Source: Eledone cirrhosa (taxonomy: Eukaryota). From it: 64,000 nt of DNA. Positions 3,904 to 63,958 of this stretch are shown piece after piece. Within the stretch, counting starts at the first letter, position 1, and each line of letters starts with the position of its first letter. The notes under the pieces are model-generated. The model was not told the DNA's origin. It did no database searches and saw only the letters and a program-made list of their open reading frames with translations. The stretch covers positions 290,098,001 to 290,162,000 of the forward strand of contig OZ024742.1 in assembly GCA_964016885.1 (NCBI GenBank), in the 5' to 3' direction. Made by a program: the position numbers and the translations under genes.

Positions 3904-3943
3904 GATATTAAACAAATGGAAACTATATTTATAAAACCATATT

Positions 3944-9600: not shown

Positions 9601-10936
9601 ACGTGTGTTGTTGTTGTCTCCGTGTGTGTTATCGTTGTTGTGTGTGTTGTTATTGTTGTTTGTGTCTGCGTGTCTGTTGTTGTTGTTTCTGGGTATGTTG
9701 CTATTGTTGTTGTTGTTGATGTGTGTGTTGTTGTTATTGTTGTTTGTGTCTGTGTGTCTGTTGTTGTTGGGATGTGTGTTGTATATGTGTGTGCGTATAT
9801 TGTTGCTTTTGTTTTGTTTTTGTTTTTGATGCTCCAGCGTAGTTTTGTAAGTGATTTTTCTATTTCTGACAGACAACTAATCATATTTACCTTCTTGAAT
9901 GTCGCAAATTTGGGCGGCAGACATAACACAGACATTTCATCATTATCTATTTTAGCGTTCCCATAAATGTTGGTGTTTTTGTTGTTGAACTCTTCTGATA
10001 ATGAGGTGTCGGCCATGTTGATACCGTCAATTTTGTCGGGATATCTATTGGTATACTCTATAGTATCCTGATTTAGCTTTGCCTGTTTAAGCCACTTTAG
10101 TTTCCTGTTAAAGTGCTTATCACATTCTTGAGTAATGTACTGTTCTTCGGGGCGTATAAGGCTTATAAATATTATTTTTTCTGTTGGTGTGGTGATATAC
10201 AACCCCTAGAGGCGAACTAGCCTACAAATTTAGAAGGGCCCTAAATAAACATAAACTCAATATTAAGATAGTAGAAAGACCAGGTACCTCCGTAAAAACA
10301 CTTATTAGCAAGACATACCCGTTCCAAAGACCCTCATGTATAGATAAGAAATGTATAACCTGTAAAATAAGCCCCCATATTAACTGTAAAACTAGAAATG
10401 TAGTGTATAGCATAAGATGTACTGAAGGACAATGTAAAAACAAAAATATAGTGTACATAGGTGAGACAGCTCGTAGTATAGGGGAACGAATAAATGAACA
10501 CTGGCGAGACCTTCAAGATAATAAAGAATCATCTGTGCTCTACCAACATGCTAAGATAGAGCACAAGGGTAAATTAGAGAACATAGAAATAAAAATAGAA
10601 TCCGCACACAGAAAAGATGAAATGTTTAGGCAAATTACAGAGGCAGTAAGCATAAAAGAATTACAACCAAAATTAAATAGAAAATATGAGTGGAACAGCA
10701 ACATCACAACTTACAATTAAGGACAAAATGAAAACACACACACACATAGAACAAACAACCAACCAACAACATGTAAATAAATAAATAAATAAATAAACAA
10801 ATAGATAAATGAACACAAACACACACAGACACCCGGATGTGGCGCATGCGCAAACTGAGCACACAACACACACATAGAAACAAAATGGCGTAGGACAGAA
10901 GAAAGGAAAGGCACAGAAACAAAGCAAGGAATCCCC

Positions 10937-10981
10937 AGTCACTGAAGAGGTCACAGAATGTGTGACGAAAGGACTATGACT
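10937..10981 (+). ncRNA. Hammerhead ribozyme in inverted PLE pLTR
   Basis: AGTCA-CTGAAGA-GGTCACAGAATGTGTGAC-GAAA-GGAC-TA-TGACT. Confidence 0.85.
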
Positions 10982-11344
10982 ATATATAAGCAACTATCTG
11001 GTTGTGGAACCAACCAACCAACCAGAAATTTATAAGTTTGTAGATTTGTAAATTTATAAATTTATAAATATATAATAAATTGAAGTGAAAGCAACTGGTG
11101 CGTGTGTTTCTTATTGGCAACATGACCCTCCCAAAGTATAACAATATATATATATATATATATATACTTCTCGAAAAACCTGGCATTTCGAGCCACTTTT
11201 TCCATATAAAACAAGTAACATTGAGAGACCAACTAGATGTGAGAAAAACCACAGACCCTCCATCTCAACTCTACTTTTGAAAATCAGAAGAACTGCGAAA
11301 CTGGTAAAGAAACGAAATAAATATATATATTTTTTTAAAAATAA

Positions 11345-13833: not shown

Positions 13834-14809
13834 AATAATAATAACTAGAGATTGATTAACATATAAAAATACATGAATAATCACAGGAGATAATTTAAGC
13901 TTGCGTGTAACCGCGCATAGCTAGTTTAGGCAATATTTACATTTAAGTGTGATTAACTTTCCTTGTATATATCCCATTAAAAAATATATTTCACCAATTA
14001 ATCAGATGGTAAGTCACGGAAAGTGGATATTATTGGATTGTCAACAAGGAAATACATAATTTCCAGCTATTCGTGCTTACAGAGTGAGATCAAATCTTCA
14101 ACTATCCGTCACCACGTGTTGCGTGCACACAAGATAGCGGTTTCGTTTTAGTGGCGTGAAAAGGTATTCGACAACTAGAAATAGCAGTCAAAATTCTTCT
14201 CAACAGAAATAGCTCTACAATTAAGGAGCCGTATATATATATCTAAGTCCAAAATTAAGATAAATGTATCAAATGAATTTAATCTAAATCGAAATCATGG
14301 GTGTCATGACATAATGCATGCGCCATATATCCTGAGAATTTAAGCTCAAAGATAAATAAATCTGAGCATATTATAATAACTAGAGATTGATTAACATATA
14401 AAAATACATGAATAATCACAGGAGATAATTTAAGCTTGCGTGTAACCGCGCATAGCTAGTTTAGGCAATATTTACCTTTAAGTGTGATTAACTTTCCTTG
14501 TATATATCCCATTAAAGAAATATATTTCACCAATTTCTTTAATGGGATATATACAAGGAAAGTTAATCACACTTAAAGGTAAATATTGCCTAAACTAGCT
14601 ATGCGCGGTTACACGCAAGCTTAAATTATCTCCTGTGATTATTCATGTATTTTTATATGTTAATCAATCTCTAGTTATTATAATATGCTCAGATTTATTT
14701 ATCTTTGAGCTTAAATTCTCAGGATATATGGCGCATGCATTATGTCATGACACCCATGATTTTGATTTAGATTAAATTCATTTGATTCATTTATCTTAAT
14801 TTTGGACTC

Positions 14810-14815
<6 letters not shown>
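13834..14815. repeat. Palindromic duplication: 14232-14520 inverted at 14534-14815; 13834-13995 is a direct copy of 14373-14534
   Basis: Direct sequence comparison, near-identical arms. Confidence 0.88.
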
Positions 14816-14882
<67 letters not shown>

Positions 14883-16917: not shown

Positions 16918-17113
16918 CATTAGCGCTTTAGCATTTACATCACTTTATATTTATGCAGTAAAGGCCTTACCTCACATAACCATCTCACACAATATCAAAT
17001 CTATGAGATTTTGATGTTAAACAATACCCCGACATCAGAATGAGCAGCCGGTTACAGCCGGTTGGAACAGAAAGAGGTGAGAATTCCATCCAGATACAAC
17101 CGGTTTAAATGCT
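16918..17113. mobile_element. Small MITE-like element truncating the PDSS2 copy
   Basis: Short terminal inverted motif AGCATTTA...TAAATGCT; recalled as similar to an abundant cephalopod MITE (not verified). Confidence 0.5.
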
Positions 17114-17870
17114 GGTGTGCATATGCAAGGTTGATGCCAAATTTGTAAGCTTTTTCTTGCACAATAGTTTCATGTTCAGCAAGAATTATTGCAGCCTGGT
17201 AGCTATAATGAAGCAAGTTACCATAAGAGAGGTAAGCTTGGTTGAGCCAGTCACTAAATGTAATTGTCTCTTTTAATAGACCATTGCCATCGGAATCTAT
17301 AAAACTAGTAAACTGGGATTCCATTATCTTTTTTATTGATTCTGATATAATTTCAACAACTTTTGTGTTGTGTAATTTGGCAAGTGCAGAACATGCAGAG
17401 GCCAAAAGAAAGTCACCACTCAAAATAGCCATTTTGTTACAAAAGTCTAAATTACGTCTTTCACTACTGTCAACTGTCTTTAGATTTAAAACCCTTTTAT
17501 GGATCAGAGTAGCTGTGTGGATCATCTCAGTTAATTCAGCAAGACAGCGCTGACTTGGGTAAATTCCATCAATGCTGTCGTCATCAAGAGTGGAATTAGG
17601 ACAGGAACCAGCAGCTTTGGCAATTAGAAGAACAATAAGCCCACACATCTGGAGATTATGTTTGCCATCGTGTAGTAGGCCCTTTACCATCTTTAACAAC
17701 GGGTGACGAGTTCCAACTAATTTCCTCATCTGAAGAGCAATGTTAGATAGTTCATCGCTCAGGAGGTACTGGAGACTTAAAAATGAGGTAGGGTAGCCAA
17801 CTACTTTTTCAGCTTCAGACACAGCTTTTTTCCAGTCAGGACTGGTATTTGAACGCCAGGAAGAAAACAT
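17052..17870 (-). pseudogene. PDSS2: Intronless, truncated decaprenyl-diphosphate synthase subunit 2-like copy (probable retrocopy)
   Basis: WKKAVSEAEKVVGYPTSFLSL, QMRKLVGTRHPLL, QRCLAELTEMIHTATLIH, NKMAILSGDFLLASAC. No introns over ~250 codons; homology ends at YAHQ. Confidence 0.82.
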
Positions 17871-17966
17871 GTTATTAACCAGTATTTGTGTTTCCTTTGG
17901 ATTGGGCAGAGTAAAGTAACATGGTGCCCAATAATATAATATATATATTATATATATAATATATAT

Positions 17967-18232
17967 AAAGTATTGTGAACTATATGTTTGATTGTTTTGG
18001 AAAAAGCTGGTTCAATGCAAATTAGAAATACAAGAGTGAAAACTAGAATAAAGTAAAGCAAACAAAACAAAGTAATTTTTCAAAAGGAGAGGGAGTGTGA
18101 TGGTGGCATCAAGATAAAAGTACAAATTGTTTTGATTGTCTTATTCTACTCTAGTTTTCAGTCCTTTATTTCTAAATTGCATTGCACCAGCTTTCCACAA
18201 ACAATCACAACCACATATCTTACAATACTTAT
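17967..18232. repeat. Imperfect inverted repeat (old MITE or fold-back)
   Basis: GGAAAAAGCTGGTTCAATGCAAATTAGAAATA vs TATTTCTAAATTGCATTGCACCAGCTTTCC. Confidence 0.6.
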
Positions 18233-18344
18233 TATAAAAAAGAGTTGTTGGGGCAGAATCCTCAAACACTCCTTCCAACGGGTCCTGTCAGAAGCAACTG
18301 TCTTGAATTAATCTAGTTGGAACCCCTTACATCTGTTTTCTTGA

Positions 18345-25107: not shown

Positions 25108-27938
25108 TGAGGAAGGATTCAGACTTCTAGAATTCTGCGACGTGAGGAAGGATTCAGACTTCTAGAATTCTGAGACGCCAATGACATGTCGATATGTAAC
25201 ACAAACTTCAAAAAACCCGACAACCACCTGATCACCTATAGATCAGGGGAGCATTCTAGTCAGATAGATTTTATCCTCATCAGAGGACGTGACAGATGGA
25301 CGGTCGTAAACACAAAAGCCTACCCTAGTGAGGAATGTACCTCCCAACATAGCTTAGTTGTCAGCGACCTCACGGTCAGAACTAGACGAACCTGGAAACA
25401 GAGGCCAACCTGGAGAAGAAAGATCTGGAAGCTGAAAGACCCCTCAGCCAGTAACAGATTTAAAGATATTTTACTCAACGCCTACAACAGTAAAGAAGAA
25501 CAGATAGAGACATTCAATGTAGAAGAGCACTGGGAGTTCCTAAAAAAATAACTTACTAGAGGCGACGGATGAGGTCTGTGGCTGGAGTAAGACCACAAGC
25601 AGGAGGAGAGTGACTTGGTGGTGGAACAATAAGGTAGATGAAGCAGTTAAGGCCAAGAGAGAGGCATGGAAAGAATGGAAGAACGGGGGGGAGCAGGGTA
25701 CATTACATAGAGATCAAGAGGGAAGCTAGGCGACAAGTATACTTAGCTAGGAGGGAAGCAGAGGATAGAAAATTCAAGCATGTTTTGCAACGTGAGGACC
25801 AGAAACAGGAGGTTTCAAGATTGCGAGGCAGTGTGTCAGAGAGAATTGTAATGTCATTGGAGAGAAGTGTATCCGGAATGATAAAGGTGAGAAGAAAGAT
25901 GCATGGAAGAGCCATTATGATAGATTACTAAATGAGGAGAATGCATGGGAAGAAGAGACCCTACCCCAAGTAGACCCTATAGAGGGGCCAGCAGTACAAG
26001 TCAGCAGTAGCGTAGTAAGTAAGGCAATCAAAGATATGAGGATGGGGAAGGCAATCGGTCCATCGGGTATAGCTACCGAGATGCTGAAGGCATCTGGGTC
26101 TGTAGGTCACACTATAACCACACGTATTGTTAACCAGGTAATACTAGAAGGTGTCATACCAAAAGATTGGTGCAGTAGCATCATTGTCAACTGCTACAAA
26201 GGTAAAGGTGATGCACTAGATAGAGGAAACTATAGAGGTATAAAGCTGATGGACCAGGTCATGAAAGTAACAGAAAGAGTTATAGCACAGTTGATTAGGG
26301 ACCGGGTGAAAATGGATAAGATGCAATTTGGGTTTGTACCAGGAAGAGGCACCACTGATGCCCTCTTCCTTGTGAGGCAGTTACAGGAAAAGTACTTAGC
26401 TAAAAGTAAGCCACTCTACCTGGCATTCGGCGATCTCGAGAAAGCCTTTGACAGAGTTCCACGTGCTGTAATCTGGTGGGCTCTTAGAAAACTAGGAGTA
26501 GATGAATGGCTTGTGAAAGCTGTACAAGCCATGTATAGGGGAGCAGTCAGCAAAGTTAGGATTAGCAATGAGTATAACGAGGAATTTAGCGTACAGGTTG
26601 GTGTCCACCAAGGCTCTGTTCTCAGCCCTCTCCTGTTCATCATAGTCCTGCAGGCAATAACGGAGGAGTTTAAGACCGGATGCCCATGGAAACTCCTGTA
26701 TGCTGATGACCTCGCACTTATAGCTGAATCTATGGTAGAACTAGAGAAGAAATTCCAAACTTGGAAGCAGGGACTAGAAAGAAAGGGTCTCAAAGTCAAC
26801 ATGACAAAGACTAAGGTCCTTGTAAGTAGACGAGAAAACAGAACCCAGATCCCCTCAGGGAAATGGCCTTGCTCAGTATGTAGGAAAGGTGTAGGTAGGA
26901 ACTCCATTCTCTGCCCCAAATGCAAACAATGGGTACACAAGAGATGTAGCGGGATCTCAGGAAGCTTAATTAAGAATGTAGGCTTCACATGCAGCAAACA
27001 GCCACAGGAAACAAGTACCACCAATCTCTGGGAGGGCTCTGTATAAACAGTAGACAGCTTTGGCTACCTAGGTGACCGAATTAGCAGCGGAAGTGGGTGC
27101 TCAGAAAGTACAATAACTAGGGTAAGAACGGGATGGAAGATGTTCAGGGAACTACTACCACTGCTAGCTGCAAAAGGCTTCTCCCTCAAAATGAAAGGCA
27201 GACTGTATGATGCGTGTATCCGAACAGCAATGTTACATGGTAGTGAGACCTGGGGGCTGTCTATGGGTGACTTGCGTAGATTAGAAAGAAACGTAGCCTG
27301 CATGCTCCGATGGATGTGTAATAGTAATATACGCGAACGACAAAGCATAAATGAATTGAGAGACAGACTGAGCATAAGAGGAATCAAATGCTGTGTGCAG
27401 GAGAGGCGGTTGCGTTGGTATGGACATGTGATGCGTATGAAGGATGACAGCTGCATAAAAAGGTGCAGAGCACTAGAAGTCGATGGAAACCGCGGGGTGG
27501 GGAGACCCAAGATGACCTGGGATGAGGTGATAAAAGCCGACCTTACCCAATTACACCTCTCAAAGGCGATGACACACGACCGTGACCTCTGGCGTCACGC
27601 AGTAATACAGAGTACCCGACCTCCCATGAGTACAAGCTGAAGCATATAGACAATATGCCCCCACACCCTCCCACTGTAAGGTGGTCGTGGAGGCGCCACG
27701 GCAAAAAAGCACCCCGCCCACACTGTAAAGTGGACGTGTAGGCGCCACGAAAAAGCAGCCAGCACTCACTGTAAATGAGGTTGGTGTTAGGAAGGGCATC
27801 CAGCTGTAGAAATCAAGCCAAAATCAGTTCCTGTATGAGCAAGGCATGGTCAGCCGACCAGACACTGCCAACAACAGAACAACCCGTCTAACCCATGCTA
27901 GCATGGAAGAACGGACGTAAAACGGTGATGATGATGAT
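25108..27938 (+). mobile_element. 5'-truncated RTE LINE, frameshifted
   Basis: APE end (QIDFIL, SQHSLV), RT (DLEKAFD, GVHQGSVLSP, YADD), 3' UTR and (GAT)n tail. Confidence 0.95.
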
Positions 27939-28960: not shown

Positions 28961-31900
28961 ATCATCATCATCATCATCATCAACGTTTAACGTCCGTGTT
29001 CCACGCTTGCATGGGTTTGGACGGGGGTAGTCCCACTTGAGGCAAGAGTGATTGTCTTGCTCGCATAGGACTGTCTGGCAGGTTTTCTACAGTTGGATGC
29101 CCTTCCTAACACCAACCACATTTACAGTGTGGGTCTGGGAGGTTTTTACCGTGTTGCCTACACGGCCACATTACAGCGTGGACTGTGTGTTTTTTTGTCG
29201 TGACACCTACACGATCTCATTTGTTTCGGCCTCGATGGCGCGGCACCAACATAACTTTACATAGAACGGGGTGGTGTGGATCGGGTGGGGGTGGTGGGAC
29301 GGGGTGTATTTGTTAGAGATGCCTACTGGCTGGAGTAGGTTTTACTATATATTTAGGTAAGGCGGGTCTTCTCTGTTACTGAGTACCGCCAAAGGTCTCG
29401 GTCCAGTGACATTGTCTTGGAGAGGTGTAAGTGTGTGATGTCGGAGTTTATCAGCTCGTCCCAGGTTTTTCTAGGTCTGCCTATTCCGTGACTACCGTCT
29501 ATCTTTATTGCCCTGCACTTTGTTATACAGCTATCGACTTTCATGCGCATCACGTGTCCATACCAACGTAGCCTTCTCTCGAGTAAACAACATCTGATCC
29601 CTCTTATCTCTAATTTATTCCTTAGTTCGTTTATGCTTTGCCGTTCACGTATATTACTGTTACACATCCAGCGGAGCATGCAAGCTTCGTTCCTCTCTAG
29701 TCTGCGTATATCCTCTGCACACAATGCCCAGGTCTCACTGCCATGCAGCATTGCTGTTCGTATGCAGGCATCGTACAACCTGCCTTTCATTTTTAGTGAG
29801 AACCCTTTAGCAGCTAATAGTGGTATAAGCTCTCTGAACTTTTTCCAACCAGTTCTGACTCTAGCTACAGTACTTTCAGAGCACCCTCCCCCACTGCTGA
29901 TTTTATCGCCCAGGTAACGGAAGCTGTCCACTATTTCTATAGAACCCTCTGCGCAATTGAAAGAGCTAGTAGTTTGTGGGCACTTGCTGCTACTTATTGC
30001 ACCAGAGCACCGGCCACATGTAAAATCTATGTTCTTAGTTAGCCTACCTGTGATCCCACTACATCTTTTATGCACCCATACTTTGCATTTAGGACATAAA
30101 ATGGAGTTTCTACCTACGCCTTTCCTACACACCGAGCACGACCATTTCCCAGAAGGGACCGCCGCCTTGTTTTCTTTCCTACAAACTAGTACTTTGGTCT
30201 TAGCCAGGTTAATTTTAAGTCCTTTTGACTCTAGGCCGTGCTTCCATGTTTGGAATTTCTTCTCTAGCTCGGCCATTGATTCCGCTATGAGTGTCAGGTC
30301 GTCTGCGTATAGGAGTTCCCATGGGCAGCCTGTCTTGAACTCCTCTGTTATGGCCTGAAGGGCAATAATAAATAGTAGTGGACTGAGAACAGAGCCCTGA
30401 TGGACGCCGACTTTTACGCTAAACTCTTCACTATATTCGTTGTTAATTCTAACCTTGCTGACTGTTTCTTTATACATGGCTTGTATAGCCCTCACAAGCC
30501 ATTCGTCAACGCCTAGTTTTCTAAGAGCCCACCAGATAATGGAGCGGGGGACTCTGTCGAAGGCTTTCTCCAAGTCGACAAAAGCTAAGTAGAGGGGTTT
30601 ACCTTTAGCTAGGTACTTCTCTTGTAGTTGTCGTACTATGAAAAGAGCGTCTGTGGTACTTTTGCCTGACACAAACCCGAACTGCATTTCATCTAGGTCA
30701 ATTCTCTCTCTGATTAGTTGCGCTATTACTCTTTCCGTGACCTTCATGACCTGGTCGATTAATTTAATGCCTCTATAGTTACTCCTATCTAGGGCGTCTC
30801 CTTTACCCTTATAACAGTTAACGATGATGCTGCTATGCCAGTCCTTCGGAACAACCCCGTTTTGTACGACTTGGTTAACTATGCGGGTGACCATGGTGTG
30901 TCCCACCGTGCCAGATGCCTTCAGCATCTCAGCAACTATTTCCGAAGGCCCAGCCGCCTTACCAGTCTTCATATCCTTGATTGCCTTACTTATTATACTC
31001 CCCTCGACTAACACTGCTGGTCCCTCTATTGGGTCGATATGGGGGAGACTGCCTTTCTCCCAATTATTCTCCTCATTTAGAAGCCTTTCATAGTGACACT
31101 TCCAAGCTACCTTCTTATCAGCGTCGGTGATGGCAAGTGTGCCATCGTCGTTTAGTACACACTTCTCCCCGACAATATCACGGTTTTCCTTGACGCATTG
31201 CCTAGCAATCCTGAACACCTCACGTTTTTGGTCATCGCGTTGTAGAACATGCTTGAACTTTCTTTCCTCAGCTTCCCTTCTTGCTAAGTACACTTGTCTC
31301 CTAGCTTCCCTCCTGGCCACTTGATAGTCCTCTCTACTTCCCCCATCCCGCCATACTTTCCAAGCCTGCTTTTTGGCCTTAATTGACCCCTCCACCTTAC
31401 TGTTCCACCACCATGTTACTCTCCTCCTGCCTACAGGCCTGCTCCAGCCACAGACCTCGTCTGTCGCCAACAGCAGGTTTGCTTTCAGAAATTCCCACTC
31501 TCCCTCTATATTGTCCGACTCTAAATGTTCTTCCTTACTGTCGAAAGCATCAAGTAATATGCTTTGAAATTTATTCCTGGCTGTGGGGTCCTTTAGCTTC
31601 CATATTTTCCTCCTGAGGATAGTCCTCTTCTGTTGTCGAGTACGTCTCGTCCTGACTATGAGGTCGCTAATTATCAGTCTATGTTGGGAGGTGCATTCTT
31701 CATGGGGGAGGGATTTAGTGTTAACAACAGACACTCTGTCACGTCTTCTGGTAAGGATATAATCTACCTGGCTTGTGTGTTCCCCGGATCTATAGGTGAT
31801 CAGGTGATTGTCACGTTTTTTGAAGTTAGTGTTACAGATAGTTAGGTTATTTGCATCACAGAATTCCAGGATTCTGGAGCCTTCCTCATTTCTAGTACCA

Positions 31901-32332
31901 AACCCATAGCCTCCATGGATTTCGTCGTAGCCGTCACAATGTTGTCCAACGTGACCATTTAGGTCGCCTGCGATAATTATATAGTCACTGTCGGATATTT
32001 GGGAGGTAGTTAGCATCAGTGTCTCATAGAATCTGTCTTTTATAGTGCCGGGCAGTCCGGATTGGGGTGCGTACGCAGATATTACTGTCACCGTAGTTCT
32101 ATTGAGGACAAGTCGTATTTTAATTATTCTGTCGTTCACTCTATTTACGTCTATTATCTTATCTGCCCACTTTTCTGCTACCATGATTCCTACTCCACCC
32201 AGCCCATCGTCGTTTCCCACCCAGAAAAGCTTATAACAACGTTTTTTACCCTCAATGAACCTAGCAGACCCACCCCTCCACCTGGTCTCTTGAATACAAC
32301 AAACATCGACCTCCTTACGTTCAAGCATTTCT

Positions 32333-32335
<3 letters not shown>
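28961..32335 (-). mobile_element. RTE LINE with uninterrupted 991-aa APE-RT ORF (29353-32328)
   Basis: IQETRW, AYAPQ, GDLN, QVDYIL, DLEKAFD, YADD, PHD-like Cys cluster, RWYGHVMR; (ATG)n tail. Confidence 0.97.
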
Positions 32336-32852
<517 letters not shown>

Positions 32853-33924: not shown

Positions 33925-37448
<3,524 letters not shown>

Positions 37449-37529: not shown

Positions 37530-40500
37530 CTCCACCACGTTTGGTATACATGCCCGACGCTGTACGATAACCTTTCCCTTGTGAGTATATTATCAAACAG
37601 ACAAGGGGTGAACAAGGCTCCGTAAGCTGTAGTGTGGGCAACCCGTCTAGGAGAGCTACCACTCTGAATAAATTGGTGCTGGGTAGAGAAGTCCCCTAAG
37701 TCGAGTAAGACAACTTCCCTAGTGCTGGTGGCACGAATAAAAGCACCCAGTCCATGCTGTAAAATGAAGGGGTAGAGAGGCCCCCTGAGTCCAGTAAGAC
37801 AATCTCTCTAGTGCTGGTGGCACGAATGAAAGCACCCAGTCCATGCTGTAAAGTGGTGCAGGTGTTAGGAAGAGCATCCAACCAGTATATATACTACTGC
37901 CAAACACTATGAACACAACCAATGAAATTTGCAACAACTGCGTAAACCGTCATCAAGCAATCGCACAACAAGAAAAAGAACGAGACGTCACATCTCAGAG
38001 ATGCCACACTTAATGTTGGCACTCTAACAAGTAGATCTGGTGAGATAGCGGAGATGTGGGAGAGAAGGCATGTGGATGTGTGCTGTGTGCAAGAGGTGAG
38101 ATGGAGAGGTGCCTCTGCATGACTAATCGCAGGCAAACATCGTAGTTATAAGCTTTTCTGGGTGGGTAATGATGATGGGTTAGGTGGGGTGGGCATATTA
38201 CTGGCTGAGAGGTGGATCAATAAGATAATAGAGGTAGTTAGAGTTAGTGATAGAATAATTAAGCTTAGATTAGTTGTAGGCAAGAGACTACTGACAATCA
38301 TCTCTGCCTATGCTACCCAGGCAGGCCTAGGTAAAGAAGAGAAAGACTGCTTTTACGAGCAACTTTTACAAACAGTCGCAATGACAGAGGACAGAGACAT
38401 CGTCATGCTAGCAGGGGACTTCAATGGACATGTTTGACAGCTCTAGGATGAATACACTGGGGTACATGGTGGGCACGGTTTCGGCTCAAGAAATGAAGGA
38501 GTGAGGCTTCTTGAATTTTGTGATGCAAATGCACTAACCATTTGCAACACTAACTTCCAGAAGCCTACCAACCACCTAATAACGTACAAATCAGGCGAGC
38601 ACATAAGCCAGATTGACTTCCTGTTAGTTAGACAGCGAGACAGACAGATGGTGTCAAATACTAAGGCATACCCTGGGGAAGAATGTACCCCACAGCATAG
38701 TCTTTAGTGACATCTCAGTAAGCACGAGAAAGAATGAGACATACAGGAAGGTGTGGAAAAGAAAGGTCTGGAAGCTAAAAGACCTTTCACTAAAATACAA
38801 ATTTAGGAAAGCCCTTCAAGATGTGTATGTCGAAAAAGAAGACGATTTAGGGTTGTATGACATAGATGATAAGTGGAATTTCTTATGTGACAACTTACTG
38901 CAGGCAACCGAAGAAACATGTGGTTGGGGCAGAGAGTGACCTGGTGGTGGAACAGCACGGTAGATAGGGCCATAAGAGACAAAAGACAGGTATGGAAGGC
39001 TTGGAAAAATGGTGGGAGTAGGGAAGGATACACAGCCGCTAAGAGAGCAGCTAGACGTCAGGTGTACTTAGCACGCAGGGAGGCTGAGAGTAGGAGGTTT
39101 GCCAATGTTCTGCGACGGGAAGATCAGAGACGTGCGGTGGTCCGCATTGCAAGGCAGTGTGTCAGTGCAAATCAGGATGTTGTTGGAGATAAGTGTGTCC
39201 GGAATGATGCTGGTGTACTTAGTGTCACGAATGATAAAAAAAAGGAGGCCTGGAAATGTCATTATGAAAGACTGATGAATGTGGAGAATGAATGGGAGAG
39301 AGAGAAATTACCCCCAGTAGACCCAACAGAGGGACCAGATATTAAGATTGATGAATATAGGGTACAACAGGCAATTAAAGAAATGAAGAACGGTAAGGCT
39401 GCTGGACCGTCGGGGATAGTTGCTGAGATGCTGAAGGCATCAGGTGAAGTAGGTATTAAACTGGTTGCACGCATCATCAATCAAGTTATATATGGTGGTG
39501 TCATACCCAAACACTGGTGCAGCAGTATTCTCATAAATTGCTACAAAGGTAAAGGGGATGCTCTAGAGAGGAGCAATTATAGGGGTATAAAACTGATAGA
39601 TCAGGTTATGAAAGTGGCAGAAAGGATTTTAGCACAACTAATTAGAGAAAGGGTCAAACTAGATGAGATGCAGTTTGGTTTTGTGCCTGGGAAGAGTACA
39701 ACAGATGCCCTCTTCTTGGTGAGACAATTGCAAGAGAAGTTCTTAGAGAAGAATAAGCTACTATACTTAGCCTTTGTTGACCTAGAGAAGGCCTTTGATA
39801 GGGTACCCTGATCTGTCATCTGGTGGTCCCTAAGGAAGCTGGGTGTTGAGGAATGGCTTGTGAGGATAGTGCAAACTTTGTACAGAGGTACTCTCAGTAA
39901 AGTCAGAGTAGGAATGGAGTTTAGTGAGGAATTCCAGATACAAGTAGGAGTACATCAGGGTTCGGTCCTCAGCCCGCTCTTGTTCATTATAGTCCTCCAA
40001 GCCATAATAGAGGAGTTTAAGACTGGCTGTCCATGGGAACTTCTCTATGCTGACGATCTGGTTCTTATAGCAGAATCAGTAGAGGAGCTAGAGAATAAAT
40101 TCTGGCTATGGAAACAACAGAGGAGTGAGAGTGAACCTAGCTAAGGCAAAAGTGTTGATGAGTAGAAAAGAGGACAATACTCCGATTCCATCAGGGAAAT
40201 GGCCATGTTTGATATGTAGGAAAGGAACTGGCATAAATTCCATAAAATCTACACAATGCAGATCTTGGGTACACAAGAGATGTAGTGGGATAGCAGGCAA
40301 ACTAACAGGTAGGGAAAACTACGTATGCAGTAGATGTACAGGGAAAGTTGACAGTAGTAATCGCAGTGATAGACACATTCCAATGCAGGTGGGTTCTATA
40401 GAAGTGGTTGATAGCTTCCGGTACCTAGGTGATCAGATTAGCAGGGGGGGGGGGTCCGAGGCCATAGTATCTAGAATAAGGACGGGTTGGAAGAAGTTTA

Positions 40501-40902
40501 GGGAGCTGCTTCCTGTGTTGACAAAGAAGGGTTTCTCCCTGCATACGAAAGGATGGTTATATGATGCTTGTGTGAGATGCACGATGCTGCATGGTAGTGA
40601 GACATGGGCAACAACTGCAGAGGATATGCGACGGCTGGAGAGAAATGAAGCTAGTATGCTCTGTTGGATGTGCAATGTCAATGTGCGTGAACGACCAAGC
40701 ATAGACGAGTTGAGAAGGAAACTTGGCTTAAGAGGGATAAGTTGTGGTGTGCAGGAGAGAAGGCTGAGATGGTATGGCATGTGATGCGCATGCAGGATGA
40801 CCGCTGGGTAAAGAAGTACCAAGAAATCCCAGTAGAAGGAAGACGCAAAAGAGGTAGACCACGTAAAACATGGGCAGAGGTGGTGAGAACAGACCTCAGA
40901 TT
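37530..40902 (+). mobile_element. Degenerate RTE LINE of the same subfamily, with 5' UTR
   Basis: Multiple stops and frameshifts, colinear with 34115-37080; 5' GGGCAACCCGTCTAGGAGAG..ACTCTGAA motif. Confidence 0.93.
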
Positions 40903-42059
40903 TCAGAAGTATTTTTAATCTATGATATTCATTACACTTGACTATATCTTTATACACCTTTAAAATGATCCGTTTTCTTTAAAAATTAAAAAAAATTTTA
41001 AATGATCTTCCTTCTTAAATTTAGTATTTTTACCATTTGATATTATTTTCCTAATGATACTCTTATTAATTTTTTTTTAGATGTAGATTGATAATCTTTA
41101 ATTGACATTCTGAAAGATATCCTCTTTACAATAATTCTTCGAAATGTATAATACTTTTTTCCTCTTTTTAATCTTCAAACTTTTCACACATTTTTCGACA
41201 TGAATAATATGTAATTGAAATTCTCATCCTAGAAAAAATAATCTCACACAAAATAATATATAATTTTCTCTACATACTTTCTGAGTAAATCATTCATCAA
41301 ATTGAATGGTTAGCAAATAAGACTGGAGTTATCTTTTCCTTTACAACCGAGCAAAAACACAATTGATAACTTCTATGATAAACTATATAACTTCGCCAAA
41401 TTAACAATATTCTGAAAACATTTTCAATGTTGGAACAAAATGTTTGAATCTACAAATTGTTCTCCTCTTACAACTTGAACTACGTCTTTTTCTTAAATAT
41501 TTATGTAAAATGTAAAATCCTCCGTAACTCATTTTAGAAATGTAAACAATTAATACGTGCGTTTTATTTCAATAAAATCACCAATAATACTTAATACTTG
41601 CACAATTATTAATCTATTTATATATTTACAACCTGTTTTAATGTAATAAGATAAAATGTACTTACAACCATAATTCTTCATATAATCTAATTGATTATAT
41701 ATATACAATATTATAACTCATAATATAGATAAAGTAATTTTTTTTAAATTCTGTAATCATACTCCACCATTCCTACAAACTGTTAATCCTTTTTAAATTA
41801 ACGTAAATACAAGCTCTTCTTTCTTTCTTATTTCATTTCTTCCTCCTACACATACATATATATATCCTAATAATTATTTAAATCTATCTAGCGTCTAAAA
41901 ATAACTTTTTTTTCTTCAGACCTATACTTCAGCCTCATCTTAATAATTTGAAACATTTTACTTTTCTTCTCTTTCCCTTCTTTCCTTTACTATCCAGGAA
42001 TAACTTGAACCGTTAAGATCCTATTCCTGGTTATGTCAATATTTATAAAACAAACTTTG

Positions 42060-42119
42060 TATTTTATCTGAAGAGAGCGTACCAAAGTTTGGTACCCTTG
42101 AAATATATATAATAGAATA
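42060..42119 (+). ncRNA. Hammerhead ribozyme (family A)
   Basis: TATTTTAT-CTGAAGA-GAGCGTACCAAAGTTTGGTACCCTT-GAAA-TATATA-TA-ATAGAATA. Confidence 0.85.
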
Positions 42120-42453
42120 AATATGGTTTTATAAATATAGTTTCCATTTATTTAATATCATTGTATATATATATATATATATATATAAACGGAAAAAATG
42201 AAACGATATTTCATTTCCCACTCTTAGTACGGCTGTTACTTAAATATAAGTATGTACACGTACATACATATATGTATACCGACGTACAGTAGTATGTATA
42301 TATATATATACATACATGCACACATATATATATGCACGTATGGATTCACCGAACATTTATTATAATGCTCGGTGTGTTTGTAAACAAACATCCCGTATTA
42401 AGCCGTAGTGTCTAGCAACCACCGTTGCTCGTTTGTTCAACACTGACAAAGAA

Positions 42454-42496
42454 ACGATGTACTAGTTTCAAGCTTGTTAGCTATCGTCAGCAACGT
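42454..42496 (-). ncRNA. Hammerhead ribozyme inside a direct-repeat-flanked unit
   Basis: ACGTTG-CTGACGA-TAGCTAACAAGCTT-GAAA-CTAG-TA-CATCGT. Confidence 0.8.
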
Positions 42497-42757
42497 ATAC
42501 CTTCCTGCCAGATTGTTGAACGTATATACTTACCTTATGCATATTAACGGCTGAGTAGCCCAATTTGCATATCGAGTGGGTTAATCGGCCGGGTGCACCG
42601 AAAACGATAAACGGAAAAAATGAAACGATATTTCATTTCCCACTCTTAGTACGGCTGTTACTTAAATATAAGTATGTACACGTACATACATATATGTATA
42701 CCGACGTACAGTAGTATGATATTAAATAAATGGAAACTATATTTATAAAACCATATT

Positions 42758-42822
42758 TATTTTATTATATATATTTCAAGGGTAACCAAGACAACATTAG
42801 TACGCTTTCATCAGATAAAATA
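42758..42822 (-). ncRNA. Hammerhead ribozyme (family A), left arm of inverted repeat
   Basis: Reverse complement of 43250-43314 with one mismatch in stem II. Confidence 0.85.
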
Positions 42823-43249
42823 CAAAGTTTGTTTTATAAATAGAGACATACCCTTTGAAAACCATACCTTATCGGTTGGAAATTCACTGGATAGTGAAAA
42901 TATATTAGGGATTATTCAAACTTATATGTGAATATGCAAATGAATATGTAAATAATTGAAAAACAACCGTTTATTTAAATGACACTGGAGAAAGAGAGAG
43001 AGAAAAAAATAAAAAAATGGAAATTAACAAGAGGATGAATAACACTCATATAACGTAATTTGGAGGAAATATATTCTAAGTATATATCTAATGATACGTG
43101 TATTTACGATTAATTATTTGTTAAAATTCTTTTCTAATATAATATTTACTGTTATAAGTAGATAGAAAAATATTTCCACTATCCAGTGAATTTCCAACCG
43201 ATAAGGTATGATTTTCATGGGTATGTCTCTATTTATAAAACAAACTTTG

Positions 43250-43314
43250 TATTTTATCTGATGAAAGCGTACCAATGTTGTCTTGGTTACCCTTGAAATA
43301 TATATAATAAAATA
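43250..43314 (+). ncRNA. Hammerhead ribozyme (family A), right arm of inverted repeat
   Basis: TATTTTAT-CTGATGA-AAGCGTACCAA..TTGGTTACCCTT-GAAA-TATATA-TA-ATAAAATA; perfect 8-bp stem I. Confidence 0.9.
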
Positions 43315-43377
43315 AATATGGTTTTATAAATCTAGTTTCCATTTATTTAATATCATTGAATTATATATATATATATA

Positions 43378-46300
43378 TACGCTACTTTAATATCTTCAAA
43401 TAACCAAAGGTTCACTCACATAAGAAAAAAGTATATACAAATACACGTGCTTTTCCTACAAACTCGCAAGTAAGTTTTCTTAACTACAAATTATTATTAT
43501 ATACACTCGTTTTTCCTTGAATATCTTCAAACAACCAAATAACCCAAAAAAAAGTGTATACAAATACACGTGCTTTTCCTACAAACTCGCAAGTACGTTT
43601 TCTTAACTACAAATTATTATATACACTCGTTTTTCCTTGAATATTTTCAAACAACCAAAAACTATTAACATGCTCGAACAACCAAAACTCACATCCATAA
43701 GAGAGAATATATATATATACACGATTCTTTAATTTCTTCAAATAACCAAAGGCTCACTCAAATATAAAAAAAACAAACAAACATGATTACTGACCAGCAA
43801 GCCTACAACAGACGAAATTGGTCTGATAATGAAATTGACCTCTTAATAAACACATGGTTTTCTCTGTCCCAAACAATAAACATTAACGCTTCGTGTCTGA
43901 ATGAGATTGCTGAAAAAACAGCTCAAACATTCACCACGAGGTCTGCTAAGCAGATACACAACAAACTAAAACACGTCGAAGTCTCTTTCAAACTAATTCA
44001 AAACCATTTTGAAAAACTTCAACATTTTTACTCCAATGGTCAAACACAATAACAACAGCCAGAAAATCAGGAGCCACCACCACTACTGTATTCAAGCATA
44101 ATAGCTGAGTTACTGAATGACAGTATCGCTCAACCACTTTCTCAGCCATCATTATCGCCATCATCATCACCACCGTCATTATCTTCAGCCAGTAATGGAT
44201 CACTGCTTTCGGCGATATCCAATTTTAGTGGACTAAATGCTGCTTACTTCAATGTATGAGGCTATTCCAACAAATTTACATTCCCTTTTTTTTAGCCGTT
44301 AAAAGAAATATAGATTTATTTATTGTTTTTTTTTTGCGATTTATTTGCCACGTTTTTGTTTGTTTGTTTTGTTTTTTTTGCCGATCTGTGGGGATATGTC
44401 GCCGGCCAACAAATGGTCCTCTTCTTCCGATACCACTTCGAAAGAAGGATCAAGGTGGAGAGAAAGGCACTCAGTCCCAGCCAATTCCATGAAAGATGGG
44501 TGAAAGTAGCAATAATGGCCCGTGTAAGTGGGCCATCTCTCTATATCGGCTTGTACAGGTAAGAGAAGAAGGGAGCACCCCCCTCTCTCTGTGCTCCCTG
44601 GCAGAAAGGTCGCACACTTTCTACGGGGGTGTGTGTGACCCCAAAAGGCTGCCTCTCTATTGAGGACTTAATTTTTTATATTTCTTTTTAATCACTCGTT
44701 AAATGTTTGTACTTGATTCTTGTAAAAACTTCCCCCGTGGCAAATAAAGAAATCGTGGCAAAAACGAGGCAAATAAAGAAATCTATGCCCCAGTGGCAAA
44801 TAAATCGCAAAAAAAAAAACAATAAATAAATCTATATTTCTTTTAACAGCTAAAAAAAAGGGAATGTAAATTTGTTGGAATAGCCTCATACATTGAAGTA
44901 AACAGCAACTACAGCACGTAAGCAGCATTTAGTCCACTAAAATTGGATATCGCCCTGCTTTCTCTCCTACCACTCTCACAGCCTCCATCACAGTTGTCAT
45001 CATCATCATTGTCACCACCACTGCCGCTATCGTATTCTACCATGTCAACTAATATCAATGAAAAACCACTGCTTTCTTCCCCCACATCACCACCACAGTC
45101 ATGCTGTAGTCAAAAGAACTTTTTTAAAAAATCTATGGAGTTGTATGCACCTCCCACTACACAAACTAGAAACCCCAAAATATGCCGCTACTCACTACGT
45201 CAGAGGCTATGCACATGTAGCGACTGCATATTTACCCATTTACCAGGTACTAGACGCACTAACACTGCCAGCCAACACCAAAGCACGCTGCCCACACGCA
45301 TAAGTCGGAGTTCCAAAATCTGCCGACATTCTCAACTTGAGAGACTATGTCTGCTGACTGACTGTCCCTTCACTCATCTTCCTGAGACACAACGCACGAA
45401 CGGAAAAGGGCCTCCATGCCAACACACAAACCACAATAAAGCCACCCCCTGCTGCAGTAATGCTGCTCCAGTCTTTTCACAAAGACACGATTACAACAAA
45501 TACAACAACAACAAAAGTAATGCTGCTCCAGTCTTTTCACAAAGACACAATTACAACAAATACAATAACAACAACAACAAAAGAGGGAACTGCAACCATA
45601 TCCAATGGTGTAACCACAAATCCAATCAAAAACTGCTCCCTGAACAAGAAAATTTTTCTTTTTTAGCCATGAACCTGGTAAAAGAGATACAGAAAAACAT
45701 TTTAGCCATCACCCAACACCATCCTTGCTGTCACTAACACACAATCTCAAAATAAGCCCCCTGCAACAGTCAAAACCAGCCACCATACTAGCCTCCACAT
45801 TTTTACTCACTACATAAGGTATCAGCCTATCCATCAATGCACAGAAATGGAAGATCCAATTCACTATGGATTGGGTTGGTAACCATCCATTTCACATCCC
45901 CTTCTTCATTCTTACTGAGACCCACCTTGACAACTCCCACTTGGAGGCCGAAGTAAGAGTGAGGAATTTCACAACCATCCATGCGGATCGTGTTGGCAAA
46001 AGGAAGGATGGAACTGCCATTTTCCTGCATGATTCCTTTACAGCAGATGGTAACACAACATTCTCTAATGGATACTGTGAATCAGTCACTGTGCACAACA
46101 AAGCCAATGACCTGATATTAGTTGGGCTCTATAGGCCACCACAAACACCCATAATCTGCTTCAAAGAATGCCTCAACAGCATTAAATGCTTTATTAAACA
46201 GTGCCATTCTAGCAACATACTTTTGATGAGAGACTTTAATCTACCCTGTGTCGATTGGTCTACATGTAGTTTGAAACCAGGCATCCCAACCTCAACCACT

Positions 46301-60630: not shown

Positions 60631-60768
60631 CTTAAACTTTAATGTTATTTTAATAAGTATATATATGTGTGTGTCTGTGTGTGTATGTGTGTGACCAGTG
60701 TATATAGGTCACAGACACCCACACATATATACACACTCACACTCAAACACATATACATAGATATATAT

Positions 60769-60919
60769 AAGTGGTTACACAACAGTTAGTTCACCATACC
60801 GAGAACAATTGTTTTGCCTTAGCGGATCCTCAGCTCGTAATGGACCATTATAAGCTGAGGATCCGCTAAGGCGAAACAATTGTTCTCGGTATGGTGAACT
60901 AATTGTTGTGTAACCACTT
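60769..60919. repeat. Near-perfect 75-bp-arm palindrome containing a hammerhead core in each arm
   Basis: CTGAGGA-TCCGCTAAGGC-GAAA-CAATTG-TT-CTCG at 60855-60888 and its mirror. Confidence 0.92.
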
Positions 60920-61572
60920 CTACCTAACTCGTCCCATGGACTGAGTGCTCTACCACTACGGATATTACCTTCCAGTGTTCTACCACTATATATATATATA
61001 TATACACAGTTCAAGAGTAACCAATCTTAAAGAGAGAGATGGAGATAGGAGAGGAGATATTGGTGAATTAGAAGCCAAAGTGTAAAGGCATGTGCTCAAT
61101 GTGCAATATGCAGTAGAAAGCAGCTAGGTGACTGGGTTCATGCAGAGGTTAGGCGCGCAGAGCTGGAAATATTCATTAGTTAAGCAAAACAAGGCCACAA
61201 ATTTCATAAGGAAGACATTATTAAAAGATTGTCAGCATAGTTTAGTTTGATGTAAGGAATGTAGAGAATAATAATAATAATATTAATAATAATAATGTCC
61301 GTTTACAATTGTTTCGCTACTCCATATTATATTTCTGGATCAGATGACTATATATCATAATTGATCTGGTTCAGTTGAAAATAATTAACATATTTAAAAA
61401 ACAGAGCGGCCCATCGGAACTTCAAAGGAACATAAATTAAAATAATGAGAGAATGTTACATAATATAATGTTCCATATATTGGTTTTTCAGTATGGTGTC
61501 TTGGTTGCATCAGTTGTCAGCCATAATCAAGCAGTATTCATCTGTCAAGGCTGCATTGTGTGAGATCTGCCT

Positions 61573-63958
61573 ATTGTTTACGGACCCGATGGGCTCCTTA
61601 CCCTTAAAGGGTACAACCCCAGTAGTACAGATCGGGTCCGTAAACAATTAATCAGCTTCTTCCGCGATTTAAAATAAACCTACAAACGTCCCTGACCCGA
61701 GTAAACTTCCTGGAGGTTACCCTTGACCTCGATAATGATCTGTACTACCCATACAGGAAACCCAACGACAACCTGCACTACATCCACCGCCGGTCGAACC
61801 ATCCTAGAAACATCACCAATAACCTGGTTAAAAACATCTCCCTCCGCATATCTCGTTTGTCAGCTAATGAGCAGATATTCGAGGAACATGCGCCTTATTA
61901 CAACCAGGCCCTCAAGCGGAATGGTTTCCGGGAGGAAATATCCTACTGTCCAGCTTCCATTAGCGGAACCAGCAGGCGACACCGCCGCTCACGCAACGTA
62001 ACATGGTTCAATCCTCCCCACAACGCCGAGGTGACAACTCCTATCGGGAAAATCTTCTTTAGGCTCATTGAAAAACACTTCCCACTACAACACCGCTACC
62101 ACAACATAATTAACAAAAATACCATCAAACTCTCCAACAGCACCACACCAAACTTTGCACAAAACATCGTCTCCTCTAACAACAAAAAAACTCAACCCCT
62201 ATGGAAGAAATAACCTAAATAGCAGTGGAGAGCCGACCAGGAGGTGCAACTGTCCTGATGGATCCATTTGCCCCCTCGACAACAGATGCAGAGATCGTAA
62301 TGTGATCTACCAGTGCAACGTGAGGACGGACACCTCCAACAAAGCTTATATAGGATTAACCGCATGTGACTTCAAGACCCGGCTATACCAACACAGACAT
62401 ACCTTCCGAAACCCGTCCCGGCGTCACGCCACTACACTTTCGGGCCACATATGGACCTCAAGGATAACAATATTACCTATGATCTCACTTGGAGCTTACT
62501 GTCCAGAGCCAACTCTTACACGGGAGGACGCCGTCCGTGCAATTTATGCTCGGAGGAAACTTTACAAATGCTGTTTTCGACGGACCGACTCCTAAACAAG
62601 AAAGATGAACTGGTAACTGCATGTAAACACAGATTGCGTAGGCCTTACCTCGCCCTCAAACCCCATAATGACCCGGGGGGGGGGGGTAGACTAGGGCTAT
62701 AACACCCCACTTGCCGATTTTGTAATGGGTAACCCCTGCTTGCAAAGGTAGACGTAAGATCTTCTTTTATATCTTTTTATCACTTCCTCTATATTTCCTT
62801 CTTCCCCCCCCATCCCTCCCTAGTCCTTCCACCCCAGTCCTCTTTCTTTGTCGTCGTCCTTTTCACTTTCTCGCCCACCCGAGGCAGCCCCTCGGTCCTC
62901 TGTAGCCTCAGTCCCCCACCCCCTTCCCCTATTCTATGATAGAATTGGCCGACTCCGCTTTTTATAGCAGATGTGTTAGACCCTGGATACTTGCCTTCTT
63001 ATCCGATGGCTGCCCCTTTTCCTTGCTTTCTATATTTCTTAGTGGTATCTTTGCTTTAATTTCTCGTATATCAGTATTTAAATTTTTGGGGGTGGGGGGT
63101 GGGGGGGATTCTGAATTAATTTTCCGTATCAAATTTTTCATATACTTCGTACGAGCATTTATATTTATGTAGTTTGCACTAGAATTTTTGTATCATGGCG
63201 GCACCCTTAGAGATAGTATTAGTATTCTTTTTCGGGATTCTGAATTATTATTTCATATTAGTTTGTTTTTTTTGCACTGGATGGTTGCTGGCCTTGTGTC
63301 TGGGGTAGAAACCTTTATTTCGTACTGGTCTCGGGACTCTGAATTATTATTTTGTGGTAGTTTCTTTAGTATTTTGGCCCCCCACTTGTTGACCCGTCAC
63401 CGTAAGATATACTCGGTTGATTACTTATACCACTTAAAAGGGTCTCATTATAATTCCGTACCACCTAGTAAACCTTTCTTTAGTCTAGCAGTACCAGTGA
63501 ACGACTTGATAGCTGTCCTTAGGTTATAGTAACCAGAAATTGTTTTTTTTTTACATTTAATTGTTTTTTAACATTCTCGGTTTTTTTCTATATATTTACC
63601 TCATATTGTTTTACTTATTGTTTCAACTGCCTACCCCTCCCCTTCCCTAGTATACTTCTTTGACCTCCTGCCCAGCTGTAGCTGGCACTATCAACGCACG
63701 ACTGGGTTTCCTCCACCCCCTCTCCCTCTTTCTTCTACTGGCAGGTTCAGCTACCCCTTCCCTCCACAAATTGCCATGATAGAATTATGTGTCTCAACAA
63801 CAAACTTTTGACCAATCCTTGTGACAATCACTTTTACCATATATTGAATTACCCCCTGAGAAGCCCGGCTATTCATATGCCAGGATAAAAATTTTCATTT
63901 AGTCCAGAATTAGCCATCGAAACGGCTTGAGCTCAGCCGTCGGGGTCCTACTCGTTCC
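61573..63958 (+). mobile_element. 5'-truncated Penelope-like element (RT end, GIY-YIG, long 3' region)
   Basis: VNFLEVTLDL, SNHP, RISRLSAN, VTWFNPP, CNC..CPL, VIYQC..AYIG, CNLCSEE, CKH; same clade as the 547-3147 element; ends at (TA)n. Confidence 0.92.
63851..63946 (+). ncRNA. Variant hammerhead motif at PLE 3' end
   Basis: ACCCC-CTGAGA(A)-..GGCTA..TAGCC..-GAAA-CGGCT..AGCCG-TC-GGGGT; core is one base off CUGANGA. Confidence 0.65.

What the first reader, a model, noticed from the sequence alone, without database searches (positions are those of the whole stretch)
42187..42718. ~420-bp hammerhead unit with ~110-bp direct terminal repeats (circRNA/retrozyme candidate)
Seen: 42187-42298 is repeated essentially exactly at 42609-42718, around a unique core with a minus-strand hammerhead (42454-42496; CUGACGA, palindromic CUAG stem III, GUA site). 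Inference: a 1.25-mer is what reverse transcription around a circular or tandem RNA template would leave, as proposed for non-LTR retrozymes.
Basis: partly seen in the sequence, partly recalled or inferred. Interest (0 to 1): 0.75.

Follow-up and report, generated by a model that had tools for sequence, protein, structure and literature searches.

The report
Penelope-copied hammerhead retrozyme, truncated copy
This is one copy of a 422-base non-coding repeat with a predicted self-cutting RNA motif that occurs thousands of times in this animal genome; its end repeat is an unfinished second unit, and the ends of the family's copies match the marks of Penelope-type jumping-gene enzymes, which likely copied it from a circular or back-to-back RNA.

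Summary
42185-42296 equals 42607-42718 exactly (112 nt, period 422), and a minus-strand type I hammerhead fold lies at 42454-42496.

The repeat is not a terminal repeat. The family is large: 3,002 exact (TA)n-abutting ends and a 63-kb array. In 88 position-ordered insertions the (TA)n end is fixed and the other end is random. Second units stop anywhere from phase 22 to 422, and 1 of 26 stops near 112. 42 of 88 carry an inverted arm, and 34 of those end at a second fixed site about 59 nt away. That is the Penelope-like element (PLE) 'tail', which marks two internal reverse-transcription starts. An autonomous PLE in this window has the same anatomy, with a 57-nt tail.

Verdict: an ORF-less metazoan non-LTR retrozyme, likely moved in trans by a PLE. 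Copies run through the cleavage site without piling up there, so the template was a ligated circle or an uncleaved multimer; I could not separate these (about 50:40). No partner ORF was found and expression is untested. This copy has one ribozyme with a private stem mismatch and is probably a dead end. The scan noted the same family earlier at another locus (e1-8665316).

The parts
42162..42186 (.). (TA)n microsatellite, the inferred insertion target; also the 3' end of an older family-Y copy
   Evidence: Sequence; 3,002 genomic ends of this family abut (TA)5
42185..42606 (-). Complete 422-nt monomer (family X). RNA sense is the minus strand; 42185 is the family's fixed 3' end (phase 1)
   Evidence: two substitutions from young copy L084 outside the microsatellite
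42185..42243 (-). About 59-nt 'tail' between the two fixed end sites (phase 1 and phase 57-63); inferred to lie between two internal reverse-transcription starts
   Evidence: 34 of 42 inverted arms end at phase 53-63; interpretation from PMC11167929
42244..42349 (-). TA/TATG-rich self-complementary region with an internal (TA)n run; predicted long hairpin
   Evidence: accounts for most of the folding z-score
42454..42496 (-). Type I hammerhead fold with palindromic helix III (ACUAGU), predicted dimer-dependent; predicted cut 42460/42459; locus-specific U.U mismatch in stem I (42457)
   Evidence: cleavage not tested
42607..42718 (-).
   Evidence: Exact match to 42185-42296; truncation points vary in the family
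42716..42718 (.). 3-nt overlap (ATG) between the truncated end of X and the neighbouring Y arm
   Evidence: Sequence
41989..42166 (+). Flanking family-Y arm with its own hammerhead motif (core at 42068), 86% identical to the 43178-43379 arm
42716..43379 (.). Flanking family-Y insertion: arm (42716-42906, minus; core at 42814), spacer, inverted arm (43167-43379, plus; core at 43258) ending in (TA)n; probably older than X
   Evidence: arms 96.3% identical versus 112/112 for X

Best explanation
The locus is a 1.27-unit, 5'-truncated copy of an ORF-less 422-nt hammerhead repeat (a metazoan non-LTR retrozyme) that was likely inserted into a (TA)n run by the enzyme of a Penelope-like element acting in trans. 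Shown: the family size, the (TA)n target, two fixed end sites about 59 nt apart, random opposite ends, inverted arms in about half of the insertions, and copies that run through the ribozyme site. Inferred: multimeric copies are transcribed on the minus strand; paired hammerheads cut through a shared palindromic helix III; a PLE GIY-YIG endonuclease nicks (TA)n; the PLE reverse transcriptase starts internally at phase 1 (and, from the other DNA end, at phase about 60); here it copied 534 nt, passing the cleavage site and re-entering the start of the unit, and the end was joined to the neighbour by 3 nt of microhomology. I commit to a ligated monomer circle as the likelier template (about 0.5) over an uncleaved tandem transcript (about 0.4). 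This copy has one ribozyme and so could not release a monomer. The confidence given is for the identity and PLE mobilisation, not for the circle.
For: Fixed ends: 3,002 exact (TA)5 + phase-1 ends. In 15 loci anchored on the ribozyme rather than the end, 13 start at phase 1-8 or 57-60 (L095 and L101 are one insertion). In 88 insertions, 42 have inverted arms, 34 of 42 ending at phase 53-63; 31 exceed one unit; 49 pass the cleavage site; second units end at phase 22-422. The RT + GIY-YIG-motif element at window 6353-11147 has inverted arms, hammerheads, (TA)n at both ends and a 57-nt tail at one end only. These are the PLE marks of PMC8557442 (passages), and PMC11167929 shows in vitro that the tail lies between two internal RT starts and that both DNA strands are nicked and extended. 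Ribozyme: stem I pair 3 is U.G in 252 and G.U in 52 of 320 motifs, a two-sided change between subfamilies. One template haplotype per insertion: 16 of 173 insertion-private alleles are shared between units, 7 of them across an inversion; three consecutive 466-nt units at L216 are identical, while neighbours in the old C28 array differ by 6.5% on average (147 pairs). No run-off at the cut: 3 of 87 forward ends at phase 271-279 versus 1.5 expected (P=0.19), and 0 of 42 inverted arms.
Against: No autonomous partner was found: no shared non-family sequence at the junction of 46 non-inverted ends and no homology in the 3' regions of 50 GIY-YIG loci, taken from 150 listed and 10,597 candidates. The link to PLEs therefore rests on anatomy alone. 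Rfam has no hit. Core columns vary at 1.5%, below the mean (3.6%) but like the median (1.6%) of other columns, so no clear selection within the subfamily. The stem I covariation is one evolutionary event. The folding z-score without the TA hairpin is the same on both strands (-3.5 and -3.1). No significant A-to-G editing bias on the RNA strand (59 versus 42, p=0.11). 7 of the 16 shared private alleles are in only some of the overlapping units, which a single pass round one circle does not predict. PMC11167929 found ribozyme cleavage dispensable and uncut RNA the main substrate in vitro.
Confidence: 0.86

Rival explanations
1. Same PLE-driven insertion, but the template is a linear, uncleaved read-through transcript of a young homogeneous tandem array; the hammerhead is a passenger and no circle is needed. 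The confidence is for this step only.
For: [quoted passage not shown] Young copies at different loci are nearly identical (L084 versus L065, 0 differences), so identical units do not need a circle. Multi-unit loci exist to serve as sources (10 of 88 have two ribozymes on one arm). Partly shared alleles (7 of 16).
Against: Insertion-specific variants run through all units and across inversions in 9 of 16 cases. No shared 5' flank transductions among 46 ends. Stem I is kept by a compensatory change across subfamilies whose monomers are about 75-85% identical. Circles are abundant for coral, mussel and axolotl retrozymes (PMC7229834).
Confidence: 0.4
2. The unit is the pseudo-LTR or 3' end of an autonomous PLE not yet found, and these copies are its 5'-truncated pieces moved in cis.
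For: Minimal palindromic hammerheads are typical of PLE pseudo-LTRs (PMC4209133 passages); 24 of 57 Xenopus retrozyme families match known TEs, 21 of the 22 matched being PLEs (preprint 10.64898/2026.07.22.740005). Only 50 GIY-YIG loci were checked.
Against: Copies longer than one unit always continue into another unit, never into unique or coding sequence (31 of 88 exceed a unit; arrays of about 150 units). The closed unit is kept in four subfamilies.
Confidence: 0.07
3. A DNA-level satellite spread by unequal exchange or DNA rolling-circle copying, with a chance or relic hammerhead.
For: The 63-kb C28 array shows repeating higher-order identity patterns and has probably grown at the DNA level. 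No editing signature.
Against: Dispersed insertions have a fixed 3' end, a random 5' end, a target preference and a two-site tail, which are polar retrotransposition marks.
Confidence: 0.04
4. A small LTR-type element (TRIM or plant-type LTR retrozyme) with 112-bp LTRs, or a local duplication or assembly artefact.
For: The two copies are identical and flank a core.
Against: Repeat length varies from 22 to 422 nt between loci. The hammerhead lies outside the repeat. The 422-to-1 junction is the family's normal tandem junction, seen in about 150 array units.
Confidence: 0.02

Closest known systems
Metazoan non-LTR retrozymes (Cervera and de la Pena 2020, PMC7229834, parts 2-3 of 6 and passages read; review PMC7761336, passages)
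   Same: ORF-less tandem unit of 150-450 bp, one type I hammerhead per unit, GC under 50%, no LTR, thousands of copies from monomers to long arrays, PLEs in the same genome. The weak palindromic helix III resembles axolotl HHR_Amex1, which cleaves well only as a dimer.
   Different: Expression, cleavage and circles are untested here. In the parts read, that paper calls PLEs a 'strong candidate' for mobilisation and does not describe fixed ends, a tail or inverted arms. This unit carries an internal (TA)n hairpin.
EN+ Penelope-like elements (Craig et al. 2021, PMC8557442, passages; Cervera and de la Pena 2014, PMC4209133, passages)
   Same: 5' truncation, partial tandems that form pseudo-LTRs, an inverted truncated copy, a tail at one end only, microsatellite targeting, small palindromic helix III.
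   Different: No ORF. The tail is about 59 nt rather than the 30-40 bp described. No sequence homology to any sampled autonomous family.
Poseidon element PAc in vitro (Frangieh et al. 2024, PMC11167929, parts 1-2 of 4 read)
   Same: Two internal start sites bounding the tail, AT-rich target, both strands extended.
   Different: PAc is autonomous and its starts lie in an AC-rich stem-loop inside the ORF; here they lie at UA-rich sites of a non-coding RNA that have microhomology to the target.
Xenopus retrozymes as PLE derivatives (Li, Clavereau and Pollet 2026, 10.64898/2026.07.22.740005, parts 1-3 of 5 read; supplements closed)
   Same: Same conclusion that retrozymes are non-autonomous PLE derivatives; monomers dispersed, multimers clustered.
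   Different: Their evidence is pseudo-LTR homology and co-occurrence. The word 'tail' does not occur in that text. Here the evidence is insertion junctions, and pseudo-LTR homology was not found.

Membership tests
Metazoan non-LTR retrozyme | Short (150-450 bp) non-coding unit in tandem and dispersed copies | tested here: met
   422-nt unit; arrays of 2 to about 150 units; no ORF of 120 aa or more overlaps it
Metazoan non-LTR retrozyme | One type I hammerhead per unit | tested here: met
   218 of 245 aligned units span the motif; Rfam models did not match
Metazoan non-LTR retrozyme | No fixed LTRs | tested here: met
   Repeat length varies from 22 to 422 nt; PBS and PPT were not searched
Metazoan non-LTR retrozyme | Self-cleavage of the transcript | not testable with these tools
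   Fold, helix III self-duplex (-6.8 kcal/mol) and one compensatory pair only
Metazoan non-LTR retrozyme | Accumulates as circular RNA | not testable with these tools
Metazoan non-LTR retrozyme | Stable self-paired RNA fold | tested here: inconclusive
   Circular fold z=-9.5, but -3.5 versus -3.1 on the other strand once the TA hairpin is removed
PLE-mobilised element | Fixed 3' end with 5' truncation and partial tandems | tested here: met
PLE-mobilised element | Inverted 5'-truncated arm | tested here: met
   42 of 88 insertions; absent from the X part of this locus
PLE-mobilised element | Tail at one end only (two start sites) | tested here: met
   34 of 42 inverted arms end at phase 53-63; length about 59 nt, longer than the 30-40 bp published
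PLE-mobilised element | Homology to the pseudo-LTR of an autonomous PLE | tested here: inconclusive
   None in 50 of 150 listed GIY-YIG loci; the sample is small
Autonomous PLE | RT and GIY-YIG ORF | tested here: not met
   No ORF in the unit or joined to it
LTR retrozyme / TRIM | Fixed-length LTRs holding a type III hammerhead | tested here: not met
   Type I motif outside the repeat; variable repeat length

The most novel reading that the evidence does not exclude
The copies of this family are a genomic record of a Penelope reverse transcriptase working in trans on a 422-nt self-cleaved and religated RNA circle. It starts at two internal sites 59 nt apart from both ends of a break in (TA)n and runs round more than once, while the circle carries its own (TA)n target and so seeds nested insertions and satellites. 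This would join retrozyme circles, PLE tails and satellite birth in one cycle that can be rebuilt in vitro.
Probability: 0.45. Interest if true: 0.6.

Novelty: new member of a known kind. Interest (0 to 1): 0.4.

Why it matters
Which enzyme moves animal retrozymes, and whether the RNA circle is the real intermediate, are open questions: the papers read propose PLEs and circles but do not show them at insertion junctions. This family carries the PLE two-start footprint on an ORF-less RNA and has very young copies. That gives exact predicted start sites (phase 1 and about 60), a target ((TA)n) and candidate enzymes in the same genome for an existing in vitro assay. The locus itself is an ordinary, probably inactive copy, and the class is already described.

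Tried and rejected
(1) A base at phase 268 seemed specific to the first unit of each insertion, which would have implied an ordered linear template. It was search bias: 1 of the first 100 listed genomic matches carries it.

(2) An internal snRNA-type promoter, prompted by an octamer-like 8-mer at 42563-42570 (the motif and the newt satellite 2 precedent were recalled; the precedent was then seen as a passage in PMC2220036). None of 10 host U1 genes has the octamer within 300 nt, and none of 20 alignments of their upstream DNA to the unit beat shuffles.

(3) A-to-I editing scars, a lead from e1-8803865: not significant in this family. A C>U over G>A excess among rare alleles (60 versus 38, p=0.004) vanished with a wider allele set (p=0.30) and is one of 12 tests.

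(4) Autonomous partner: X copies beside GIY-YIG ORFs (L141, L239, L242) are separate; L141 is opposite in sense and L242 sits beyond a (TA)n run 1.2 kb downstream; L239 was not inspected further.

(5) RNA: no RNA holder listed, which is no evidence either way. Three runs labelled as other organisms held the sequence only in a few low-depth contigs, so they were not used as evidence of spread to other species.

(6) Rfam: only microRNA-like hits to AT-rich hairpins, all under gathering scores.

(7) The look-up of earlier findings by sequence returned three unrelated microsatellite notes.

(8) PMC5785218 (dimer cleavage of PLE hammerheads) was not held; only its title was seen, in a reference list. 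Supplements of the 2026 preprint were closed and may list end structures.

Full report
1. Observation. The repeat is real and exact: 42185-42296 equals 42607-42718, 112 nt at a spacing of 422. The minus strand at 42496-42454 folds as a type I hammerhead with CUGACGA, a 4-bp stem II, GAAA, the palindrome ACUAGU and a GUA site, with the cut predicted between 42460 and 42459. That is phase 276 when the monomer is numbered from 42185. A descriptor scan gave 6 hits in the window and none in 20 shuffled windows. Rfam gave no hammerhead match. Helix III would need a 2-nt loop in a single motif but forms a 6-bp duplex between two motifs (-6.8 kcal/mol), the dimer arrangement described in PMC4209133 (passages).

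2. The family. The window lies in a 3.0-Gb genome rich in animal-type retroelements. Exact patterns count 3,002 ends in which (TA)5 abuts phase 1, 8,403 copies of a 28-nt ribozyme half and 25,456 matches to a looser motif that includes sister subfamilies. Reversed-pattern controls were 0. One contig carries a 62.9-kb array of about 150 units. Sister subfamilies have units of about 426-540 nt, and those compared are about 75-85% identical to this one. Across 320 motifs the third pair of stem I is U.G in 252, G.U in 52 and another standard pair in 10, a two-sided change between subfamilies; 6 have U.U, as this locus does. Against strong selection, core columns vary no less than the median column. 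The folding z-score is largely due to the TA-rich hairpin.

3. The 112-nt repeat is a truncation point. I took 90 loci from the first 100 matches listed, which are in order of position on one contig (30 as loci, 60 fetched), and dropped 2 segmental duplicates. Of 88, 31 exceed one unit, 49 pass the cleavage site and 10 hold two ribozymes on the first arm. Second units end at phases 22 to 422, and 1 of 26 ends within 105-120. An inverted arm follows in 42 of 88, and 34 of these end at phase 53-63, in the cases inspected again at (TA)n. The anchor selects for the phase-1 end, so I checked 15 loci anchored on the ribozyme: 13 start at phase 1-8 or 57-60. Copies are therefore polar, with two fixed ends about 59 nt apart, and are not circularly permuted.

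4. This is the Penelope footprint. PMC8557442 (passages) lists 5' truncation, partial tandems, an inverted truncated copy, a tail at one end and microsatellite targeting as PLE marks. PMC11167929 (parts 1-2 of 4) shows in vitro that the tail is the stretch between two internal RT starts and that both target strands are nicked and extended. The window holds an internal control: an element at 6353-11147 with RT and GIY-YIG-like reading frames (Pfam RVT_1 below cut-off and GIY-YIG not matched), hammerheads in both inverted arms, (TA)n at both ends and a 57-nt tail at one end. The genome has many GIY-YIG loci (150 listed). No partner ORF for this family was found after 46 non-inverted ends or in 50 GIY-YIG loci, so action in trans by a PLE is inferred from anatomy.

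5. Template. The fixed ends are 216-275 nt from the cleavage site, so copying starts internally. Ends do not pile up at the cut (3 of 87 against 1.5 expected; 0 of 42 inverted arms), which argues against a cut linear monomer. Units within an insertion come from one haplotype: 16 of 173 insertion-private alleles are shared, 7 across an inversion and 9 in every overlapping unit (16 of 145 with other filters). Three units at L216 are identical, whereas neighbours in the old array differ by 6.5%. A circle predicts this, but so does a transcript of a young homogeneous array, and later duplication or gene conversion could add to it. PMC7229834 (parts 2-3 of 6 and passages) shows abundant circles for other animal retrozymes; PMC11167929 finds cleavage dispensable in vitro. 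I put the circle at about 0.5 and the uncut multimer at about 0.4.

6. This locus. The monomer differs from young copy L084 at two positions outside the microsatellite, 42452 and 42457; the second breaks a stem I pair (-2.8 versus -6.7 kcal/mol for stems I and II). With one ribozyme it could not excise a monomer. Both flanks belong to a second hammerhead family, Y, with 2,670 search candidates and its own tail at one end. The Y arms at 42716 and 43167 are 96.3% identical while the X repeat has 0 differences in 112, so X is probably the later arrival in a (TA)n run between Y arms, joined by ATG microhomology. A template switch from X to Y in one event is not excluded. L082 shows a similar X-Y junction.

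7. Comparison and novelty. It works like a non-autonomous PLE passenger and meets the sequence-level features of metazoan non-LTR retrozymes; cleavage and circles are untested. It fails the tests for an autonomous PLE and for an LTR retrozyme. A 2026 preprint (parts 1-3 of 5) already argues from pseudo-LTR homology that retrozymes derive from PLEs. Four literature searches returned no paper that I saw describing tails or two-armed insertions for an ORF-less retrozyme; the library lacks most subscription journals. After my analysis, the scan's notes showed the same 422-nt family with two ends 59 nt apart at another locus, and several sister families; these are unchecked AI notes and not independent support.

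8. Verdict. A new member of a known kind. The locus is ordinary, but the family makes the enzyme and template questions directly testable. Interest 0.40.

Noticed in passing
window 6353-11147: PLE with broken RT and C-terminal GIY-YIG-like frames, 950-bp inverted arms (99.4% identical), a hammerhead in each arm (cores at 6615 minus and 10942 plus), (TA)n at both ends and a 57-nt tail at one end; a solo end of it lies at 32376-32517.
   Followed up: partly
window 41989-42166, 42716-43379, 3851-4053: Second hammerhead family (Y) with a long stem II and a UAUA-type palindromic helix III; 2,670 candidates in the genome; tail of about 80 nt at one end in other loci. No ORF link was looked for.
   Followed up: partly
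G000 C28 45,626,171-45,689,469 (L021-L029): About 150 tandem units of the monomer over 63 kb with a short inverted arm at one end and repeating higher-order identity patterns: a satellite grown from the retrozyme.
   Followed up: partly
L146, L251, L253-L256: PLE family with RT and GIY-YIG domains, (TA)n ends, a tail of about 50 nt and a hammerhead with palindromic GUAC helix III; a candidate enzyme for in vitro tests, with no homology to X.
   Followed up: partly
window 17052-18011 (minus): 318-aa frame matching Pfam polyprenyl synthetase (E=1.4e-15) amid repeats, beside an inverted repeat at 17962-18236; could be a host exon or cargo of a mobile element.
   Followed up: no
window 29353-32412 (minus), 33928-37183 and 37752-40901 (plus), 25143-27618: Several LINE copies with endonuclease, RT and a PHD finger after the RT; 29353-32412 is a 1,019-aa open frame.
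   Followed up: no
window 1294-2607, 5660-6370, 61644-62595: Further PLE-like RT or endonuclease fragments of other families.
   Followed up: no
window 48450 (+), 59986 (+), 60855 (+), 60383 (-), 4001 (-): Further hammerhead-core-like motifs; 48450 and 60383 pass the strict descriptor, and 60855 sits in a 157-bp palindrome (60766-60922).
   Followed up: no
window 14232-14822 and 44211-44954: A near-perfect 591-bp palindrome, and an element with 37-bp perfect terminal inverted repeats (MITE-like).
   Followed up: no
L072 and L110: X units that restart at phase 57 right after the internal (TA)n of another X unit, as if the element had inserted into its own microsatellite.
   Followed up: no
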